Both the position numbers and the translations under genes were made by a program. From the human T2T-CHM13v2.0 reference genome, Homo sapiens: a DNA stretch of 64,000 bases. Positions within the stretch are counted from its first letter, which is position 1, and every line of letters starts with the position of its first letter. Positions 1 to 47,580 of the stretch are shown in pieces. The stretch spans positions 15,520,001 to 15,584,000 of the forward strand of contig CP068257.2 of the NCBI GenBank assembly GCA_009914755.4, in the 5' to 3' direction. Under the pieces are notes generated by a model. It was not told the origin of the DNA and did not search any database. It saw only the letters and a list, made by a program, of their open reading frames with translations.

Positions 1-4090
<4,090 letters not shown>

Positions 4091-9296: not shown

Positions 9297-9640
<344 letters not shown>

Positions 9641-11098
9641 AGTGAAACAAAATTTTTGTACAATTTTGAAATGAAGTTTGTATTAATCCAAACTGGGTAT
9701 TTGAAAGTTATAATTATTAAATATAAGCTCTAGGGCAACTAATAACAAAATATCTTTTAAAATATAGTAAAAGAGGCAATAAGGAAATTGAAGTGATATA
9801 CTAGAAAATGTCTATTTTTAAAAAATAAGGCAGCAATGGAGGAATCGAGGAACAAAAAAGACATGAAACACAAACCAATACCAACATGGTGAACATAAAT
9901 CCAACCTTTCCAGTAAAAGCATTAAATGTAAATGGATGAAACACTTCATTCAAAGGACAGAGACTGACAAAACAAATAAAAGCAAAAATGATCTAATTAT
10001 ATACTATCTACAAGAGACACACATTAGATTCAAAGACATATAAATTGAAATTAAAGGATGAAACAGTGTATATCATGCAAATAGTAAACAAAAGAGAACT
10101 CAAGTAGCTATATCAACATAAATCATTCACACACTCTTCCAAAAAAAAGATGAGAAACACTTCCCAGTTTATTTGACCAGTATTACCATAATACCAGTCC
10201 AAAGAAATCATAACCCAAAAAAATAAATAAAATAGACTGTAAAAGAAAAAGTGAAACCAGAGACAAAAATGGGCATATTGTAATGATAAACAGGCAAGCC
10301 ATCTGGAAGACAAAGCAATTAAAAACATGTATGCACTAATGAAAGCACCTCAAATACATGAAGCAAAAAAAAAAACCAGTATTGAATGGAGAAATGGACA
10401 ATTCAACAAAACAATTTATGACTTTAATACCTCACTTTCAGTAATGGGTAGAAAAACTAGGCAAAATATCAGCCAGGAAACAGATGCTTGAACAATACTG
10501 TAAACCAACTATATCTAACAGAAATATATAGAATATTGCCCAACAACGGCAGAATACACATTCTACTTAAATGTGCATGGAACATTCTCTGTTATAGACC
10601 ACATGTTAGGTCATAATCAAGCCTCAATAAATATAAAATGATTAAAATCACACAAAGTGTGTTTCTCAACCATGATGGAATGAAATTAGAAACCACCTAC
10701 CAAAATAAATTTGGGAAATTCACAAATATGTAGAAATTAAACAACATCCTTGTAAAAGAAGGGTCAAAGAAGAAATCTCAGGCAAATTACAAATATTCTG
10801 AGATGAATGAAAACAAAAACAAAACATCACCAAAATTTACAAATGCTGCTAAAGTAGTCCTTAGAGGAAAATTTACAGTTGTAAATGCCTGTGTTATAAA
10901 GAAAAGTTCTTAAATCAATAACAGTCTTCTACCATAGGAAACCAAAAAAAATATATAAAAAAAAGAGTAAACTAAAACCAAAGCAAGCAGAAGGAAGGAA
11001 ATAATAAAGATGCAAGCAGAAACAAGTAAAATAGATAATACAAAAAAAACTTTAAAAATAAACAAAATCATATTTGCTTTTTTGAAAAAGCCAACGTT

Positions 11099-11459
<361 letters not shown>

Positions 11460-14400
11460 TTATTAAAATCAGGAGTGAAAAAGGGACTTCACTGCCAAAC
11501 TTATAGAACTTTTATTTTTAAAGATTATAAGAGAATGATTTGAACAATTGTAAGCTAAAAAAAATTTGATAACCTAGACGAAATGGACAAATTTCTGAAA
11601 AGATGCAAAATTGATTCTAAAAGAAACAGAAATCTGAGTAGATCTTCACAAACTCTTCCAAAAAAAAATAGAAGATGAGAAAACACTTCCCATTTTATTT
11701 TATTTGACCAGTATTACCATAATACTAAACCAAAGAAATCACAACAACAAAGAAACCCACAGACCAATGTTTCTTATGAACATTAATGCAAAATCTTCAA
11801 ATGCCAGCAAACCAAAGTGACACTTAAAAAAAGTTATATACCATGACTAACTGGGATTTAGCTCAACGGTACAAATTTGCCCTAATATATGAAAATCAAC
11901 TAATGTGATACACCGTATTAACACGATGAAAACTAAAAGCACATGATCATTTCTATAGATAAAGTAAAATCCTCTGACATAACGTAACATTGCTTCGTGA
12001 TAAAAACACTCATTAAACTAGAAACAGAAGGAAACTTTTTCAACTGCATAAAGGCCATCTACAAAATAACAACAGCTAAAATTATATCTAATTGTGAAAG
12101 ATTGAATGCTTTCCTTCTAAAATCAAGAAATAGAAATAAAATCATCCCTATTCAGGATCTTGCATTTAGAAAATGCTAAGAAATTGACGCAAAAAATTAT
12201 TAAAACTAGTAAGTATAGCAAAGTTGCAGAATACAAGCTCAATATACAAAGATTAATTGTATTTTTGTACATCACTAATATATAATCTGAATAAGAAATT
12301 AAGAAAACAATTATATTTACAAAAGTATCAGAATAAAATAGGAATAAATTTAACAAAAAACATGGATCATTTGTACACCAGAAACTATACAACATAACTG
12401 AGAAAACATATGGAAGACAGGAGGCAGGACTCACTTGTAGCTCCCACTCAGATTAACAGAACCACATGTGGAGACTCACATTATGAACTTTTGCTCCAAG
12501 ACATACTGCAGGAACATACTGGGAAAACAAACAAACAAACAAAAGATTACAGACCTTTTGAAAGAAGCAGCTTCCTGCTGCAAATTCTGTGATGTGAGAC
12601 AGTTGAAAAACTCAGCGCCCAAAGTGTGAGAGGGAGAAAGCCCACATCTGAACACAGATTCTCCCTGGGGAACCTGAAAATCAAGATCACAGGAGAAAGA
12701 CTTAACCTTACCTAAAGCTGAAACAAATTTAGAGAGCCAAGTGAAATATAAAAGCAGAAGAAGCAGTGAGAAGAGCTGGTCCAACAGGACTCTTGGTCCC
12801 CAGGGAAGCTATTTCTGACTTCATCTCACAGGGTTCCTTTGGGAGGACTGCCAGTAGACCTGGGGAAGGACCACAGGAAGCAGAAAACTTCCCGGTGAAC
12901 TCTTTAATAATTTTGAACTAGCACGAAATTTCCAGGGCAGAATTGGTGGGGGGTGGGGGCGGTGAATGTGAAGAGCAGGTACAAGCACAAAAGACATGGC
13001 AGGCAGGGATGGAAAAGGCCTGAAAGCCCAGCTTGCTTTCTCAGTGGGGAGGTTTGTAGTCTGGGACAATAACTCAGCCCTGCTCACTGGCCGTCTGGAT
13101 GTAAACTCGGTGCTGTTGTTGGGGCATGGTGAAAGTGAGCTTTTCTGGCTACATAAGAGCTGGGAGAGGCAGATCACTGCTGGCATTCCCCCACTTCTCT
13201 GGTGACCTGTATGATGCAGCAGAGGAAGCCATAATCTCCCCATATTACCTCTCTGAAGAAAGAACTTAAGAGCTCAAAGACAAAGCATTCAAATTAACCT
13301 AATCCAACAAAGACAAAGAAAAAAAGTTTGAAAAACATGAACAAAGCCTCCAAGAAGTTTGGGATTATGTTAAACAACCAAACCTAAATAATTGGTGCTC
13401 AGGAGAAAGATGATAAATCTAAAAATTTGGAAAACATATTTGAGAGAATAATCAAGGAATACTTCCCTGGCCTTTCTAGAGATCTAGACATACAAGTACA
13501 AGAAGCTCAAAGAACACCTGGGGAATTCATCACAAAGAGATCTTTACCTAGGTACATAGTCATCAGGTAATCTAAAGTCAAAACAAAAGAAACAATCTTG
13601 AGAGCTGTGAGGCAAAAGCATCAGGTAGCCTGTAAAGGAAAACCTATCAGACAAACAACAGATTTTTTAGCAGAAACCCTACAAGCTAGAAGTGATTGGG
13701 GTCCTATCTTTATCCTCCTTTAAAAAAAAAAATTATCAGCCAAGAATATTGTATCCAGCAAAATTAAGCTTCATTAATGAGTAAAAGATAAAGTCTTTTT
13801 CAAACAAACAAATGCTGACAGCATTTGTCACTGCCAAATGAATACTAAAAGAATTACTAAAAGGGGTTCCAAATTTTGAAACAAATTCTCAAAATACACC
13901 AAAATAGAAACTTCTTAAGGTTCTTAAAGCACAAATCTCACAGGGCCTGTAAAACAATAACACAATAAAAAAAAAAAAAAACAAGGTATTCAGGCAACAA
14001 ATGGCATGATGAATAGAAAAGTACCTCACATCTCAATACCAACATTGAATATAAATGGTCTAATCGCTCAACTTAAGAGATACAGAATGGCAGAATGGAT
14101 AAAAATTCACCAAGCAAGATTCTGCTGTCTTCAAGAAACTCACCTAACATAAAAGGATTTACATAAACTTAAGGTTAAAGGGTAGAAAAATATATTCCAT
14201 GCAAATGAACACCAAGAGCCAACAGAAGTATCTATTCTTATATTAGACAAAACAGACTTTAAAGAAAGAGTAGTTAAAAAGACAAAGATGTATATTATGT
14301 AATGATAACAGGACTAGTCCAACAGAAAAATATCATAATTCTAAATATATATGCACCTTACAGTGGAGATTCCAAATGTGAAAAACAATTACTACTAGAC

Positions 14401-19364: not shown

Positions 19365-20550
19365 ATGGAAATAGAATGGGGCACCTCTTGGGGTTACATC
19401 TTTCAGTCCTCAGGATGGCCACAATTGGAGGATGCCAAGCTTCATCTACTGGCTGCCAAACAATGGAAAGTTCTTAAAAGCCTTCACCAGGCCTTTCACC
19501 TGGGTAAAGATAAAACCTTTCAAATGGTTCAGAGATTGTTCTCAGGTAAAAACCTGACACAAATAGTTAAACAGGTTGTTAACGCTTGCAAGATTTGCCT
19601 TAAAAATCATCCCCTCAGCTGACCACTTCTGCACCCAGGAACTCAAAGGACAGCAGGCTGAGGGAAAACTAGCAAATGGATTTCACCCATATGTCAAAGG
19701 TAAGGGGCATCCAGTACCTTCTAGAATGAACAGATACCTTCACTAACTGGGTAGAGCCATTTCCATGTGGGACAAAGAAAGCCTCCAAGGTGGTAAAAGT
19801 ACTGATTAATGAGATAATTCCTTGCCCTGGCCTGCCTAAGCAACTTCAGAGAGATAATGGCCTCTCATTCAAGGCAGCTGTGACCCAGGGGGGTCACAAA
19901 GGCACTAGGAATACACTACCATCTTCATTGTGCTTGGAGACCACGATGCTCAGGAAAGATAGAAAAGACAAATGATATTATAAAAAAGGCACCTCAGAAA
20001 ACTATCTCCCTCAGACTAATCTTCCCTAGACTAACCTTCTCACCATAGCTCTACTACATATTTAAAACAGCCCTTTAAAGCTAGGTTTGAGTCCTTTTGA
20101 AATGATGTATGGACAGCCTTTTCTCACCAATGATTTCTTGCTAGACAAATAAATCTCTGATTTGCTAGACAAATAAATCTCTGATCTTTGGCCCATTTCC
20201 AACAGGAACTGGAGCAACTGTCAGAGGCCCAATCCCATGAATTTGGGCCACTTCTATTCAACCCAGGGGACCTAGTACTGATGAAGGTACTTCCTTCCCT
20301 TCCTCCCTCTATAAACCCAGATTGGAAGGGACTTTACGCTGTACTTGTTTCCACTCCTACAGCACTGAAAGTCACTGGAATATGTTCTTGGATTTATTAT
20401 ACCCAAGTAAAGGCCTGGAAAGCTCACAGAGTTACCTCCATCAACCCAGAAGACCACCGAAAGTACCAATGTGAAGAGATCAGAGATCTCAAGTTAATAA
20501 TTTTTAAAAAAGTGTTAATAATTAGCCTTTCAGGTATATTCTCTTTATAG
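19365..20550 (+). pseudogene. ERV pol integrase (HHCC zinc finger, DDE core and C-terminal domain) remnant.
   Basis: ORFs 19365-19622, 19790-19975 and 20188-20550, with the alignments listed above. Confidence 0.7.
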
Positions 20551-25651: not shown

Positions 25652-28600
25652 GGGATGATAAAAATATTCTAAAATTAGATACTGATGATGCTTGCACAAC
25701 CCTGTGAATATACACTGCAAAAGGGTGAATTTTATGTGTGAATTATATCTCAATAAAATATAAAACAATATTTTAATTAATAAATAAAATACATCTGTTT
25801 ACCCCCCCCAAAAAAAAACCCAGATCAATGGCTAGAAGGCAAAGAAGCTAGAAAATACACTATTCCTATTCTAAAGCTGATAATCATTTTACCATGTTGT
25901 AGATATCTCTAAGTAAGAAGTTGACAAAGATCAACAAAAAGATGTGTTCCATTCCAAAAATTTCTCGATTCTATGATTCAGCGCAGAAAGATTGTGCAAG
26001 TTTATACTTTAGTAATACAGAACAAAGTGAGTACTGGTGATAGCAGCAGAAGGCAGACACATTTCTAGGCAGACAGGGGTGAGTCCCCAGTAAAACTAGA
26101 CCTTCAAACCAAGCACAGCTTAAAGCCTGAAAACTGAGTTACCAGCGTCCACAACCAGAGTGAGAACTTCCTCAGTGCCTTTTAGCCAATTTAATGGTGC
26201 TTTGTCCAGGCCCACTTATGGACCAATCAGCACACACTCCCCCATTCTGATCCCATAAAAACCCTGGACTCAGCCACATATTGGGACTACATGCTTTCAG
26301 GTAGGGGCTACCCACTTCAGGTCCCCTCTTGTGTCAAGAGCTGTTCTGTTGTTCTCTTCTCTGCCTTGCTTATTCTCCAGTTGTCCATGTAACCTCATTC
26401 TTCTTGGACATGGGACAAGAACCCAGTACCCACCAAATGGCAGGTGCAAAAAATGCTGTAACACTGTAGCCCTCCAACCCTCTGCTGGCACCAGGCTGTT
26501 GCTCCATGTAACAGGAAGCAGTGGCAATGGGGCCAGGCCAGCCAAGAAGCTATGAGCTGGAATGTGGGCAGCAGGACTGAACAAGCTGTAAAACAAATGA
26601 GCTGAAACTTGCTGCCCTCCCACCCCCATTCACTGTGCTGCAGGCAGTGGAAAGAAGAGAGAGATGTATCACTCCTTGAGGGCTCAGACCTCAGGACTCC
26701 CCAAGCAACTGTAACACCCCTTGGGCTCCACAGTTGCTGGCATCTCTGAGTTTTCAGAAGCCACTGCAGCCTCCTTGTCCAGACACTGGCACCCAAGCAG
26801 AAATGATTCAAGACAGCACACCCGGACCAGTCATGGACTGAGCACAGAGTTGGCAGGCACTGGATCCAGGTCCATAGCACAAGCTGAGTGCAATCACTGG
26901 GCTGAGTGAGAGGAGTAAGCCTAGCAGAAAACCCAGTGCCAAGCAAAGCCTGAGCAAAGGCACCACTAGCCACAGAGCTTTCCTGCTGGCAAAGGAGCAC
27001 CAAAAGAATCCTGTGTCATTTCTGGGGGTCATCTGAGATCTGCAAAAGGGTAAGTAAAAGTGGACCTCTTTCACTTTCATTTCGAGGCTTCTTGTCCTCA
27101 GTTTTTTTTTCTGAAAACAGATAAAGCGCTAGGCCTGTAGCAGCCAGTTAAGAACAAATGGCATGGCTGCAGAGGATAGATTTGTTGGGGAGGACTTTCA
27201 CAACGCACCCTCTTGTCCCCATCACCCCCAGGTATCGAGAATATTGGCTTTGTTCCAATCCAGTCTCCCTTCACAGAAGTCTAGTTATCATGTGGGATCA
27301 AAATAAGGTCCTGGGGCAACTGAAAGTATCTGGCCAAGGGTACATCTCTGCATTACCTGAAGCTTCCTGGGCCAGCCCTCAATCCCTGACAGCCCATTCG
27401 GGTGTCAGCCAAGACCTTCAATCTTTCTTATGGCATTTTTTTTTCCTTTGCAGAGGTCATAGCTCCTATCTCTTCTTTATATACAATGCTAAGGGTGTTG
27501 TTGCAAACCACAGAGATAATATGACTGGGTAGAATGAGCATTTGGCTCAGTCATCAGGAGTATAATTCAGAACAATGTGGTATGTGTCCATTCTTAGAAA
27601 CTAAGAGGATGTAACAATTGAGAGTTTTCTGTCCCCTGTTAAGGGAATCAATTTGCATAGGGCAAGAGCCTATTTCCCCCCAGCCACCTTCCCCTTCCCT
27701 GCATTTAAGGGTTCCTCCCACTGCCCCCCGCACCTTGTCAGGAGTCAACAGCTTCACCTTAGCATTGTGCTTATGATAGAGAAGCAACCGAGGAGCTGCC
27801 CTACTGGTTGTTGGCTGCAATTTGCTGAGGACCACCTGGGACTAGTTTAATGGGTCTGTGTACACTCCTGAGGCACCTTTTTGTCCCAAATTCAATTCCA
27901 AGCTTCAGGTTGAAGGCCTAAAGAGGGAAAATTAGATCTGAGGGACCCAGAGGCAGTCAGAGTGGAAGGCTAGGGCACAGCCCGAGTGAGCATGACTATC
28001 CTTGCTAATTAGGCCTTCCCACTTCACTGGGAAGAACTATCATCATGACTTTGATGTGAAATCAGAATTAAGAACTAATTCTCTGAACTTACAGTGTGAA
28101 GATTACATCTGCAGAGCAGACACGCAAGTGGTTCTCAGGAACCATTCAGTTTTTAAAATACAATTTCTGGCAGTATGTAAGATTGGTCATTACAAACCCT
28201 GCTCCTCTCTCCCTACCTTAATAACCAGGACCCCACTTTTCAACATTCTGAATATCACCAGTCTTAGGGAACCAAGTCCTCCACTCCATCAAACACTTCT
28301 AGAAACTGCTTCGTAAAAGTATCACTTGTGAATCCAGAAGAACTGACTGACAGAGCAGGAGCATCATCATCTTGGACAAGTCCCTCATTCTAAAGTTCAC
28401 CTTAATAAAAACCACCTAAATCCAAAGGGTATCAGCCTAATGGCTAAGGTCAGCATGACCATAAACCACAAATAACATCTCCAACCAGAAACATTCCAAA
28501 CTCCTCCACAACCAGGGACATGCTAGCCCCGAGATAAACACCACTCCAGGCCAGAAGGATGTCTGCCCCAAGATAACCTCCCCTCCTCGCAAAGAGATTC

Positions 28601-45468: not shown

Positions 45469-46505
45469 AGATCTTTTAATTTTTTTTATCCTATGATTCC
45501 ATTTATCTTGAGCTTATCATTCATTTGGTCCTTGGCTTTTGGTCTTTGTTTAGGGGCTGCAGAGGCTTCACTGGTTCATTTCTTTCCTTGGTGACATTGT
45601 CCAAAGACCAGGTGGTAGTCAGGTTTTTAGGTAGATTGCTGGACTCAGTATTATTCTGCAGCCCATAAGAAGAAATACTGTTTTTATCTCCTAGGTCACT
45701 AAAGGCATCTAAGTGTCTTGGTTGATTCTTCTGAACTAAGCCACTTAGTTCATTGAGTCTCTCCTTTCTGCAGGTAAGATGTCAATATTTACCCTCCTGA
45801 TTGTGGCTAGTGACCACACAGTATTACTCATGCATGGTTTCTAGGCATGGCCTTTCAGACTGGCAGGTAACTTCAAGGGACCCATGACTATGGCTTTTGC
45901 TTCGAACAAACATTTTTCTTCATTCATTACATACATCCCACAGCCCTTGAACAGTGTGATTGGGGGTGGGTCACTCATGATTTCATTCTGTCTTTCTAGA
46001 AACCACTATAACAACAGATTTGGATTTAGAGTAATCACTTTTAATGTTATTTTTGGAAAACTTTGTCTTTGTAGCCTTCAAAAACAAGATTTGGTGCTTT
46101 ACATTAGACTGTTTTGGGATGCTCCTCACAGAGGGTCTTTCTTCAGGACTTCCGTTCTGCACTGTTATTATCAGTTCTGCCAGCTCTGGGCTATAATCTA
46201 TTGGTATCTCTGGCAGCTTTTCTTCAATAATTTCATAAACTAAAGAATTGGTATTTTTACATTGAAAGTATGCTTTGGGTGACCATTTCACAAACACAGC
46301 ATCCCAGAGTCCAAACATCAGACTTATAGCTCTAGTGTTTGTTTGAGAATAATTGAGGACTCATGTAGTAAGGTGTGCCAGTGAGGGTACTAACCATGTC
46401 ACAGTTGCTATAGTGATCCAGGGTGGGGCACTGCCCTCAGACACTTGATTTTAAGTAGTCCATAGAATATCAAAGAAAGAGTTGGTCACCAAATACAGAT
46501 TTTTA
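45469..46505 (-). pseudogene. NEK4-like (NIMA-related Ser/Thr kinase 4) processed pseudogene fragment. It is intronless and covers roughly residues 150-470 of the parent protein: the kinase C-lobe (subdomains VII-XI) through the post-kinase linker. Frameshifts and stops are present, and an A-rich 3' end lies at 45469-45492.
   Basis: The minus-strand translation is continuous across what must be several parental exons: ...LKIKCLRAV..DHYSNCDMVSTLTGTPYYMSPQLFSNKH.SYKSDVWTLGCCVCEMVTQ.. / ...FQCKNTNSLVYEIIEEKLPEIPIDYSPELAELIITVQNGSPEERPSVRSIPKQSNVKHQILFLKATKTKFSKNNIKSDYSKSKSVVIVVSRKTE.NHE... / ...LTCRKERLNELSGLVQKNQPRHLDAFSDLGDKNSISSYGLQNNTESSNLPKNLTTTWSLDNVTKERNEPVKPLQPLNKDQKPRTK. Human NEK4 as I recall it reads ...IIKVGDLGIARVLENHCDMASTLIGTPYYMSPELFSNKPYNYKSDVWALGCCVYEMATLKHAFNAKDMNSLVYRIIEGKLPPMPRDYSPELAELIRTMLSKRPEERPSVRSILRQPYIKRQISFFLEATKIKTSKNNIKNGDSQSKPFATVVSGEAESNHEV...GFVQENQPRYLDASNELGGICSISQVEEEMLQDNTKSSAQPENLIPMWSSDIVTGEKNEPVKPLQPLIKEQKPKDQ. 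Confidence 0.6.
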
Positions 46506-46814
46506 AAATAAATGTAAACCATTAGCATATATAGATAAAATATAAAAATGAATGCAAATAATTTGGTTTTTCTAGAAAGCATCTAGTATTATGTTATTCA
46601 AAATAATATTGTTCACAGTATTTATTGTCTTGATCGAAATGTTAGTTTTCTTTTGACTTAATTTTAGTTTCTGTTTAATTCCTAGGAAGGCTATTGGTTT
46701 AAAGAAAAAGTCTTACCACTCAAAAATATGAGTTGATAAAGACAGTAAAAACCATGTGTTATCATCTTTGTGCAGTTTACAAGACACTGTGCCCATAATA
46801 ATACATTCTCAATA

Positions 46815-46990
46815 AAGAATAAAGGAAGGAAAAATATAAGAAAGGGAAGAAGAAATGGTGAAAAAGAATCATAAAAACAAAGATAAACTCATGAATCAAT
46901 AAAAGAGAGAAGAAAAGGGAAAAGTAAAAGAAGAAAAACATAAAGAGGGAGGGGAAGATCATGAAAGACAAGAAAAAAGACGAAAGATAA
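46815..46990. repeat. Purine-rich (GAA/AAG/GGA) low-complexity tract.
   Basis: 'aaggaaggaaaaatataagaaagggaagaagaaatggtgaaaaagaatcataaaaacaaagataaactcatgaatcaataaaagagagaagaaaagggaaaagtaaaagaagaaaaacataaagagggaggggaagatcatgaaagacaagaaaaaagacgaaag'. The minus ORF 46777-47040 is just its Phe/Leu-rich translation. Confidence 0.6.
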
Positions 46991-47199
46991 TTTTTTTCTA
47001 TAACACAACAGTAACATGGCAAGGAATTCTCAACTCTCAAGATTTACTGAAATTTTGACAGAACTCAGAGAGACTGTAGAATGTGTGCTTGAAACGTGAA
47101 TGAAGAAAAGAGAAACAAATCAGATAATGGGCATAAGGTAGACTCTTATCCGAATGTACAAAAGTGAGTGGGTATATTTTTTTAAAAATAAAGACAGTT

Positions 47200-47580
47200 T
47201 TATGGTATGAATGTGTCTCCCAAAATTCATATGATAGAACTTAATCACCAATGTGATTTTACCAAGATGTGGAGACTTTAGGGAGTTATTAAGTCATGAA
47301 AGCAGAGTCATCATGGATGAGATTAGAGCCATTAAAAAAGGGCTTGAAGGAGTAGGTTCTTTCTCTTCCCCTCTTCTGCGATGTGAGGACACTGCTTTCA
47401 AGGCAGTTCCAAGTTTCATCTTGGAAGCAGAGGCTGGAGCCCTCACCAGACACTAACCTGCAGCCACTTTGATCTTGGACTTCACTGTTTCCAGAACCAT
47501 GAGGAAATAAATTTCTTTATAAATTACACAGTCTCAGGTATTTGTTATAACAGTACAGATAAACTAAGAAAGACAATGAT
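47200..47580 (+). mobile_element. MaLR (MST/MLT1-type) solo LTR.
   Basis: 'ttatggtatgaatgtgtctcccaaaattcatatgatagaacttaatcaccaatgtgat...ctgcgatgtgaggacactgctttcaaggcagttccaagtttcatcttggaagcagaggctggagccctcaccagacactaacctgcagccactttgatcttggacttcactgtttccagaaccatgaggaaataaatttctttataaattacacagtctcaggtatttgttataacagtacagataaactaag' has the canonical MaLR LTR architecture. Confidence 0.7.

What the first reader, a model, noticed from the sequence alone, without database searches (positions are those of the whole stretch)
45469..46505. NEK4-like kinase retropseudogene fragment on the minus strand, ending exactly where the parent's Alu-derived coding exon would begin
About 1 kb of minus-strand sequence translates, through four or five frameshifts and a few stops, into a colinear intronless match to the NEK4 kinase C-lobe and linker. 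The matching motifs are GTPYYMSP.LFSNK, SDVW.LGCCV.EM, NSLVY.IIE.KLP..P.DYSPELAELI......PEERPSVRSI, FVQ.NQPR.LDA and NEPVKPLQPL. The parental gene encodes this region over several exons, so this is a processed copy (estimated 60-70% amino-acid identity, hence old). Homology stops at ...KDQKPRTK, followed within about 45 nt by an A-rich run (45469-45492). In NEK4 as I recall it, the residues immediately after ...KEQKPKDQ are [40 protein letters not shown], which is an antisense-Alu-derived exon. The retrocopy may therefore derive from a transcript that lacked the Alu exon or was polyadenylated before it, or it may predate the exonisation. It is the only non-repeat-derived coding homology in the window.
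Basis: partly seen in the sequence, partly recalled or inferred. Interest (0 to 1): 0.55.

Follow-up and report, generated by a model that had tools for sequence, protein, structure and literature searches.

The report
Old truncated NEK4 processed pseudogene
This is a dead, intron-less, reverse-transcribed copy of part of the NEK4 kinase mRNA, an ordinary processed pseudogene whose only unusual feature is that its 3' end seems to run about 37 bases into an unspliced intron before a short poly(A) remnant.

Summary
Minus-strand 46449-45525 is colinear with NEK4 mRNA from kinase subdomain VII (IKVGDLG) to the exon ending ...KPKDQ. It crosses four exon junctions with no intron. It aligns as one 893-nt HSP (72%) to a spliced mammalian NEK4 cDNA contig, and carries 3 stops and at least 7 frameshifts. 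Every database hit is NEK4: 67% aa identity to a human-like NEK4 fragment, against much weaker matches to NEK1, NEK2 and NEK7.

Published junction peptides (PKDQ>SLALSPK) confirm that the human Alu exon starts exactly where the homology ends. The coincidence is trivial, because that point is simply a conserved splice donor.

- **Age:** the copy shows about 15% change at sites invariant in three mammals, so it is far older than the Hominidae-only Alu exon.
- **3' end:** the 10 nt after the exon (ATGAATGATA) match the conserved intron start GTGAGTGATA at 8/10 (about 5e-4 per position). An A8TTA4 run follows 37 nt later (chance about 0.01), and none of the next NEK4 exon is present. The source transcript was probably unspliced at this donor and polyadenylated just inside the intron.
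- **5' end:** detectable homology starts at 46449, not 46505.
- **Not found:** no target-site duplication is detectable.

This is ordinary and of low interest.

The parts
45525..46449 (-). NEK4-derived exonic sequence (processed, 5'-truncated). It runs from the kinase C-lobe at ...IKVGDLG through the linker to ...KPLQPLNKDQKP(K)DQ.
   Evidence: Colinear alignment to the Myodes NEK4 CDS (68% nt) and a single 893-nt HSP to spliced cDNA contig L009 (72%). Only Nek4 hits. Pkinase Pfam hit.
46323..46449 (-). Part corresponding to the parental exon encoding YLHEKH...PYNYK. Only its 3' two-thirds are present, and this is the 5' truncation point.
   Evidence: Upstream extension tested and not above chance.
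46217..46322 (-). Parental exon SDVWALGCC...IIEGK, joined directly to its neighbours.
46065..46216 (-). Parental exon LPPMP.DYSPELAELI...PEERPSVRSI...EATK.
45925..46064 (-). Parental exon KTSKNNIKN...YVM.
45525..45924 (-). Parental large linker exon GE.KCLSQEKP...NEPVKPLQPLNKDQKPKDQ. It has a 1-nt deletion in AAAGG relative to the human primer sequence, which gives ...PRTK*.
   Evidence: 76%, 74% and 73% nt identity in BLASTN to genomic exon copies L002, L003 and L004. Multiple alignment. Human primer GAACAAAAGCCAAAGGACCA.
45515..45524 (-). ATGAATGATA, a remnant of the unspliced 5' splice site and intron start (GTGAGTGATA in three mammals).
   Evidence: 8/10 identity with both mismatches G>A. 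The frequency of a match this good in the window is 5e-4 per position.
45488..45524 (-). 37-nt non-exonic tail between the exon end and the A-run, inferred to be intron read-through.
   Evidence: Not homologous to the next NEK4 exon. Beyond the first 10 nt there is no significant similarity to non-primate introns.
45502..45507 (-). GATAAA hexamer 14 nt upstream of the A-run, a possible variant or decayed poly(A) signal (inference only).
   Evidence: Sequence reading. Not tested statistically.
45474..45487 (-). A8 TT A4, a decayed poly(A) tail remnant.
   Evidence: There are only 9 A8+ runs in 64 kb read on this strand. The chance of one starting within 60 nt of a given point is 0.009.
46332..46334 (-). 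In-frame stop TAG at the parental Tyr codon.
45983..45985 (-). In-frame stop TGA.
45841..45843 (-). In-frame stop TAG at the parental Cys codon.

Best explanation
A NEK4 transcript was reverse-transcribed and inserted here, in a primate (most likely human) AT-rich and L1-rich region, by the LINE-1 machinery (inferred). The result is a 5'-truncated processed pseudogene. It starts inside kinase subdomain VII and covers five consecutive exons with all four intervening introns removed. It has since decayed neutrally (3 stops, at least 7 frameshifts, about 15% substitutions) and has no coding function.

Its 3' end is not the normal NEK4 3' UTR. The copy runs through the splice donor of the large linker exon for 37 nt and then ends in a short A-rich tract. 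The source RNA was therefore most likely a short isoform or by-product that failed to splice this intron and was cleaved and polyadenylated just inside it, forming a composite terminal exon.

The later, hominid-specific Alu exon of NEK4 lies in that same intron. That is why the homology appears to stop 'where the Alu exon begins'. The two events are unrelated.

Shown: NEK4 parentage, absence of introns, disablements, the end at the donor, and absence of downstream exons. Inferred: L1 mediation, intronic polyadenylation, and the age in years.
For: - **NEK4 parentage:** all 19 significant database hits are Nek4 or unnamed fragments of it. Identity is 67% (101/151) to a human-like NEK4 fragment. 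The best solved paralogue, NEK1, gives only 70 bits over the kinase lobe, and nothing outside NEK4 matches the linker.
- **Processed copy:** four junctions are contiguous in the window but separated by 195-5122 bp introns in the vole gene. There is a single HSP to spliced cDNA L009.
- **Pseudogene:** stops and frameshifts.
- **3' end:** the exon ends GACCAG|GTGAGTGAT in three mammals, and the window has GACCAA|ATGAATGATA, P about 5e-4. An A8TTA4 run follows 37 nt downstream, P about 0.01. There is no trace of the next exons in the 2 kb downstream (window 45524-43501) searched by BLASTN, or anywhere in the window searched by TBLASTN.
- **Age:** 39/253 differences (K2P 0.175) at exon sites invariant in three non-primate mammals. 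The Alu exon is reported only in Hominidae.
- **Alu junction:** peptides PKDQ>SLALSPK.
- **Host:** Alu matches in the window, L1 endonuclease ORFs, and a metagenome contaminant contig 100% identical over 1065 nt.
Against: - No target-site duplication exceeds chance. The best 1-mismatch match is 11 nt against a null mean of 10.4.
- The putative tail is only 14 nt.
- Beyond the first 10 nt, the 37-nt tail shows no significant similarity to the introns of a rodent and two other mammals. I could not obtain a primate NEK4 intron for the direct comparison.
- The poly(A) signal is only a variant hexamer, GATAAA.
- I found no literature record of a NEK4 transcript polyadenylated in this intron.
- I could not check which annotated pseudogene, if any, this locus is.
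Confidence: 0.85

Rival explanations
1. The retrocopy came from a normally spliced, full-length NEK4 mRNA. Its 3' part was later removed by a deletion or rearrangement whose breakpoint happens to lie at the exon end. Under this reading the donor-like 10-mer and the A-run are coincidences.
For: No target-site duplication is detectable to fix the true 3' end. The tail beyond 10 nt has no demonstrable intron homology. The region is AT-rich.
Against: It requires a breakpoint exactly at an exon boundary, an 8/10 match to the conserved intron start at that exact position (5e-4), and a rare A8 run within 37 nt (0.009). Three independent coincidences are needed.
Confidence: 0.1
2. This is a DNA-level (segmental) duplicate of part of the NEK4 gene rather than a retrocopy.
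For: A few bases of intron-like sequence follow the last exon.
Against: Four introns totalling about 9.8 kb in the vole gene are completely absent, and the exons abut to the base. The copy aligns as a single HSP to a spliced cDNA.
Confidence: 0.01
3. The copy derives from another NEK paralogue or an unrelated kinase.
For: The kinase C-lobe also matches NEK1, NEK7 and NEK2 at E of 1e-18 to 1e-13.
Against: Identity to NEK4 is 67%. About 600 nt of non-kinase linker match only NEK4 sequences, including NEPVKPLQPLNKDQKP.
Confidence: 0.01
4. The locus is a functional retrogene or encodes a peptide. Candidates are the 111-aa ORF at 45983-46318 on the minus strand and the 119-aa antisense ORF at 45884-46243.
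For: The ORFs exist.
Against: The reading frame is broken by 3 stops and at least 7 frameshifts. The catalytic N-lobe and the HRD motif are missing. Substitutions show no sign of constraint. ORFs of this size are expected by chance.
Confidence: 0.01

Closest known systems
LINE-1-mediated processed pseudogenes (retrocopies) of human protein-coding genes, including the catalogued NEK4 pseudogenes (the symbol NEK4P1 occurs in the literature)
   Same: It is an intron-less copy of a spliced mRNA, 5'-truncated, with an A-rich 3' end and many disablements, lying in an AT-rich and L1-rich region.
   Different: No target-site duplication is recoverable. The 3' end is not the parental 3' UTR. I could not establish whether this locus is one of the named NEK4P genes.
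Semi-processed retrocopies, and retrocopies of intronically polyadenylated transcripts (composite terminal exons)
   Same: The upstream introns are removed, but the last donor is unspliced and is followed shortly by a poly(A) remnant.
   Different: Only 10 nt of intron identity can be shown with the non-primate introns available. The parental short transcript is undocumented.
Human NEK4 isoform 1 (Nek4.1) with the 46-aa antisense-Alu exon
   Same: The pseudogene's coding homology ends at the donor that isoform 1 splices to the Alu exon (PKDQ>SLALSPK).
   Different: The pseudogene contains no Alu exon sequence and predates it. The Alu exon is reported only in Hominidae, whereas the copy shows about 15-17% neutral divergence.

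Membership tests
Processed pseudogene (retrocopy) | Colinear homology to the spliced parental mRNA with the introns absent | tested here: met
   Four junctions are contiguous, and the copy aligns as one HSP to spliced cDNA L009.
Processed pseudogene (retrocopy) | Poly(A) tract at the 3' end | tested here: met
   A8TTA4 at 45487-45474. An A8 run this close to a given point has a chance of about 0.009. The tract is short and decayed.
Processed pseudogene (retrocopy) | Flanking target-site duplications and a TT/AAAA-like insertion site | tested here: inconclusive
   The best direct repeat between the flanks is no longer than in shuffles. The candidate AAAAATCT / AAAAGATCT is not significant.
Processed pseudogene (retrocopy) | Located away from the parental gene | not testable with these tools
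   No other NEK4 exon or intron is present in the 64 kb window. The parent is on chr3, but the window's genomic position is unknown.
Processed pseudogene (retrocopy) | Disabling mutations and loss of coding constraint | tested here: met
   3 stops and at least 7 frameshifts.
NEK4 (parent gene identity) | Best match to NEK4 rather than other NEK kinases, in the kinase lobe | tested here: met
   67% identity to a NEK4 fragment, against 70 bits for NEK1 as the best solved paralogue.
NEK4 (parent gene identity) | Homology to the NEK4-specific non-kinase linker | tested here: met
   The linker exon matches genomic and cDNA NEK4 copies from five sources at 68-76% nt identity.
Retrocopy of an intronically polyadenylated / donor read-through transcript | Unspliced 5' splice site retained immediately after the last exon | tested here: met
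   ATGAATGATA against the conserved GTGAGTGATA, 8/10, P about 5e-4.
Retrocopy of an intronically polyadenylated / donor read-through transcript | The whole tail is homologous to the parental intron of the same lineage | not testable with these tools
   No primate NEK4 genomic sequence could be retrieved. Non-primate introns show nothing beyond 10 nt.
Retrocopy of an intronically polyadenylated / donor read-through transcript | Poly(A) signal 10-30 nt upstream of the tail | tested here: inconclusive
   Only the variant hexamer GATAAA is present, at 45507-45502 and 14 nt upstream of the A-run.

The most novel reading that the evidence does not exclude
The pseudogene is a molecular fossil of an ancient short NEK4 transcript. 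That transcript would carry the kinase domain plus half the linker, and would end by cleavage and polyadenylation about 40 nt inside the intron that much later hosted the hominid Alu exon. This would imply long-standing weak splicing or premature polyadenylation at this donor, which might also have favoured the later exonisation.
Probability: 0.5. Interest if true: 0.2.

Novelty: already known. Interest (0 to 1): 0.1.

Why it matters
It matters little. Processed pseudogenes number in the thousands in primate genomes, NEK4 pseudogenes are already catalogued, and this copy is dead. The modest point of interest is methodological. An apparent link between a retrocopy's end and an Alu-derived exon turns out to be an ordinary splice donor, plus probable premature intronic polyadenylation of the source RNA. 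Old retrocopies of this kind can record past transcript 3' ends.

Tried and rejected
1. **5' extension to 46571 (contiguous).** A frameshift-aware protein-DNA alignment attached a weak extension. Its gain of 9 was reached by 37-57 of 400 shuffles. Ungapped nucleotide identity upstream is about 0.3. Rejected.

2. **5' extension via a second segment at 46796-46620.** By eye this looked like MGF..KL.K..LL..EW..IA, with a ~165-nt insert. The upstream-only best score was 33, below the null mean of 37. The DNA local score of 36 was reached by 37/500 shuffles. Rejected as over-reading of AT-rich sequence.

3. **Extended intron homology beyond the A-run.** By eye, GGTTACAAAGGTGTGGGT looked similar to CGCTACTAAAAGTTAAGCT. 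Local and anchored alignments to three mammalian introns did not exceed shuffles. Rejected.

4. **The tail is a diverged copy of the next exon (DQVAGECIIEK...).** BLASTN to cDNA contigs L009 and L010 stops at the exon end. Rejected.

5. **Target-site duplication search.** Nothing exceeded chance.

6. **Flanks as halves of a repeat that has other copies in the window.** No matches.

7. **Attempts to obtain primate NEK4 genomic DNA.**
   - The P0003 look-up returned no record.
   - The metagenome scan returned only the pseudogene locus itself, as a contaminant.
   - Two GTDB genome scans and one viral scan returned nothing, or chance bacterial hits.

8. **Rfam and tandem-repeat scans of the area.** Nothing relevant.

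9. **Literature search for NEK4 intronic polyadenylation.** Nothing found.

Full report
**1. The observation**

A stitched 293-aa conceptual translation found 19 significant proteins among 5.8 billion. Every one that carries a name is Nek4. The best was a bank-vole Nek4 fragment at E=8e-82, 56% identity and 98% coverage. Pfam places the first ~100 residues on positions 154-259 of the 263-position Pkinase model, which is the C-lobe only.

**2. Parent identity**

- Over 151 residues the translation is 67% identical to a human-like NEK4 N-terminal fragment, P0005.
- The best solved paralogues (NEK1, NEK7, NEK2) give only 55-70 bits, confined to the kinase lobe.
- The remaining ~600 nt match the NEK4-specific linker. 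They match genomic exon copies from three other mammals (L001-L004) and two spliced cDNA contigs (L009, L010) at 68-76% nucleotide identity.

NEK4 is the parent.

**3. Processed, not duplicated**

I fetched the bank-vole NEK4 gene (L001) and mapped its exons. The window sequence is colinear with five consecutive exons. The junctions fall at 46323|46322, 46217|46216, 46065|46064 and 45925|45924, and the neighbouring exons abut to the base. The vole introns at those points are 195, 1925, 2516 and 5122 bp. Independently, a spliced cDNA contig (L009) aligns to 46396-45527 as one 893-nt HSP at 72.3% identity. A frameshift-aware protein-to-DNA alignment counts three in-frame stops and at least seven frameshifts in the confident region.

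**4. The 5' end**

Homology starts at about 46449, at ATCAAGTG, which corresponds to the IKV of NIIKVGDLG. I tested two tempting upstream extensions: a contiguous one to 46571, and a second segment at 46796-46620. Neither beats shuffled controls. No kinase N-lobe is found anywhere in the 64 kb window. The copy is 5'-truncated inside subdomain VII, which is usual for L1-mediated retrocopies.

**5. The 3' end and the Alu-exon coincidence**

In a rodent and two other mammals the linker exon ends ...AA(A/G)GACCAG, followed by the intron GTGAGTGAT(A/C).... Several database ORFs read through this donor as KDQ|VSD. The Alu-exon paper's supplement gives junction peptides PKDQ>SLALSPK and DQ>SLALSPKLECSGTILAHSNLR. 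It also gives VAGITGVCHHAQ<DQVAGECIIEK and the human primer GAACAAAAGCCAAAGGACCA (PMC4731929).

That same paper trail shows the coincidence is not informative.
- The 138-bp Alu insert is described only for Hominidae, and the Alu-less form is the ancestral one (PMC4367857).
- At 253 linker-exon sites that are invariant in three non-primate mammals, the pseudogene differs at 39 (15.4%, K2P 0.175).
- By my own knowledge of neutral rates (roughly 1-2.2e-9 per site per year), this corresponds to many tens of millions of years, around the age of the oldest Alu families. This figure is an inference, not a measurement.

The retrocopy therefore long predates the Alu exon.

**6. Why the copy stops there**

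The Alu-less mRNA continues with DQVAGECI... for more than 1 kb. None of that is present in the 2 kb downstream (window 45524-43501) that I searched by BLASTN, or anywhere in the window by TBLASTN.

Instead, the 10 nt after the exon read ATGAATGATA, against the conserved intron start GTGAGTGATA. That is 8/10, and both mismatches are G>A. A match this good occurs at 5e-4 of positions in this window.

Thirty-seven nt past the exon lies A8TTA4 (45487-45474). Read on this strand, the window has only nine A8+ runs, so the chance of one starting within 60 nt of a given point is 0.009. A GATAAA hexamer sits 14 nt upstream of the run.

The most economical reading is that the template RNA was not spliced at this donor and was cleaved and polyadenylated just inside the intron, forming a composite terminal exon, and was then retrotransposed.

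Caveats:
- Beyond the first 10 nt I cannot show intron homology with the non-primate introns available.
- I could not retrieve a primate NEK4 intron.
- No target-site duplication exceeds chance.
- No such NEK4 transcript is reported in the searchable literature.

I put about 0.6 on this mechanism for the 3' end, and about 0.97 on the core statement that this is a 5'-truncated NEK4 processed pseudogene.

**7. Host and context**

- The window carries Alu matches, L1 endonuclease and ORF2-like ORFs, and a gammaretrovirus-type integrase fragment.
- It is AT-rich.
- The single metagenome hit (OJMC01019011.1) is 100% identical to 46586-45522 and begins with a Nextera adapter. It is host contamination from the same species.

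The window is therefore primate, most likely human.

**8. Verdict**

The finding is correct but ordinary: an old, dead, truncated NEK4 processed pseudogene of a well-known kind. The 'Alu-exon boundary' is simply a conserved splice donor. The small added insight is the probable donor read-through and intronic polyadenylation origin of its 3' end. Interest is low.

Noticed in passing
window 342-3260 (+): Long L1 ORF2-type ORFs of 147, 126 and 322 aa. The first hits the endonuclease/reverse-transcriptase Pfam families. This looks like a fairly well-preserved L1 on the plus strand, which fits the strong A>T skew of the window.
   Followed up: partly
window 20188-20550 (+): A 120-aa ORF matching the MLV integrase C-terminal domain (PF18697, E=4e-13). 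This is an endogenous gammaretrovirus-like pol fragment.
   Followed up: partly
window 26000-28000: The most GC-rich stretch of the window (GC 0.49 against about 0.35). It has ORFs of 110-202 aa on both strands; the two scanned (202 aa, 124 aa) have no Pfam hit. Its nature (LTR, CpG-rich element or unique sequence) was not determined.
   Followed up: no
window 46810-47040 (minus-strand reading): A T/C-rich, low-complexity stretch about 360 nt upstream of the retrocopy's 5' end (46449). It includes a 14-nt period repeat at 46838-46868. Its origin is unknown.
   Followed up: partly
window 47230-47560 (minus-strand reading): Sequence that by eye resembles an old interspersed repeat (ggttctgg...gtccaagatcaa...tcctcaca...catatgaattttgggag). 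It was not identified, because no repeat library was available.
   Followed up: no
L005 (ENA metagenome contig OJMC01019011.1) 1-49: The public metagenome contig consists of a Nextera adapter and index (49 nt) followed by 1065 nt identical to this window. This is host DNA contamination with untrimmed adapter in a deposited assembly.
   Followed up: yes
L001 (Myodes glareolus GCA_038090675.1) 9313-9351 and 13698-13853: The deposited vole Nek4 model omits 13 codons (VVEWFVQIAMALQ) that lie directly after its annotated donor. The exon encoding SDVWALGCC... also appears twice (10897-11040 and 13698-13853). This is either an annotation or assembly quirk or a local duplication.
   Followed up: partly
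window 46070-46084 (minus): The pseudogene reads ATKTK, which is shared with the squirrel-monkey fragment P0007. Non-primate mammals have ATKAK and the human-like fragment has ATKIK. This is a single-site hint that the copy arose on the primate stem, and it is weak.
   Followed up: no
window 45884-46243 (+): A 119-aa ATG ORF antisense to the pseudogene. There is no evidence that it is anything but chance.
   Followed up: no
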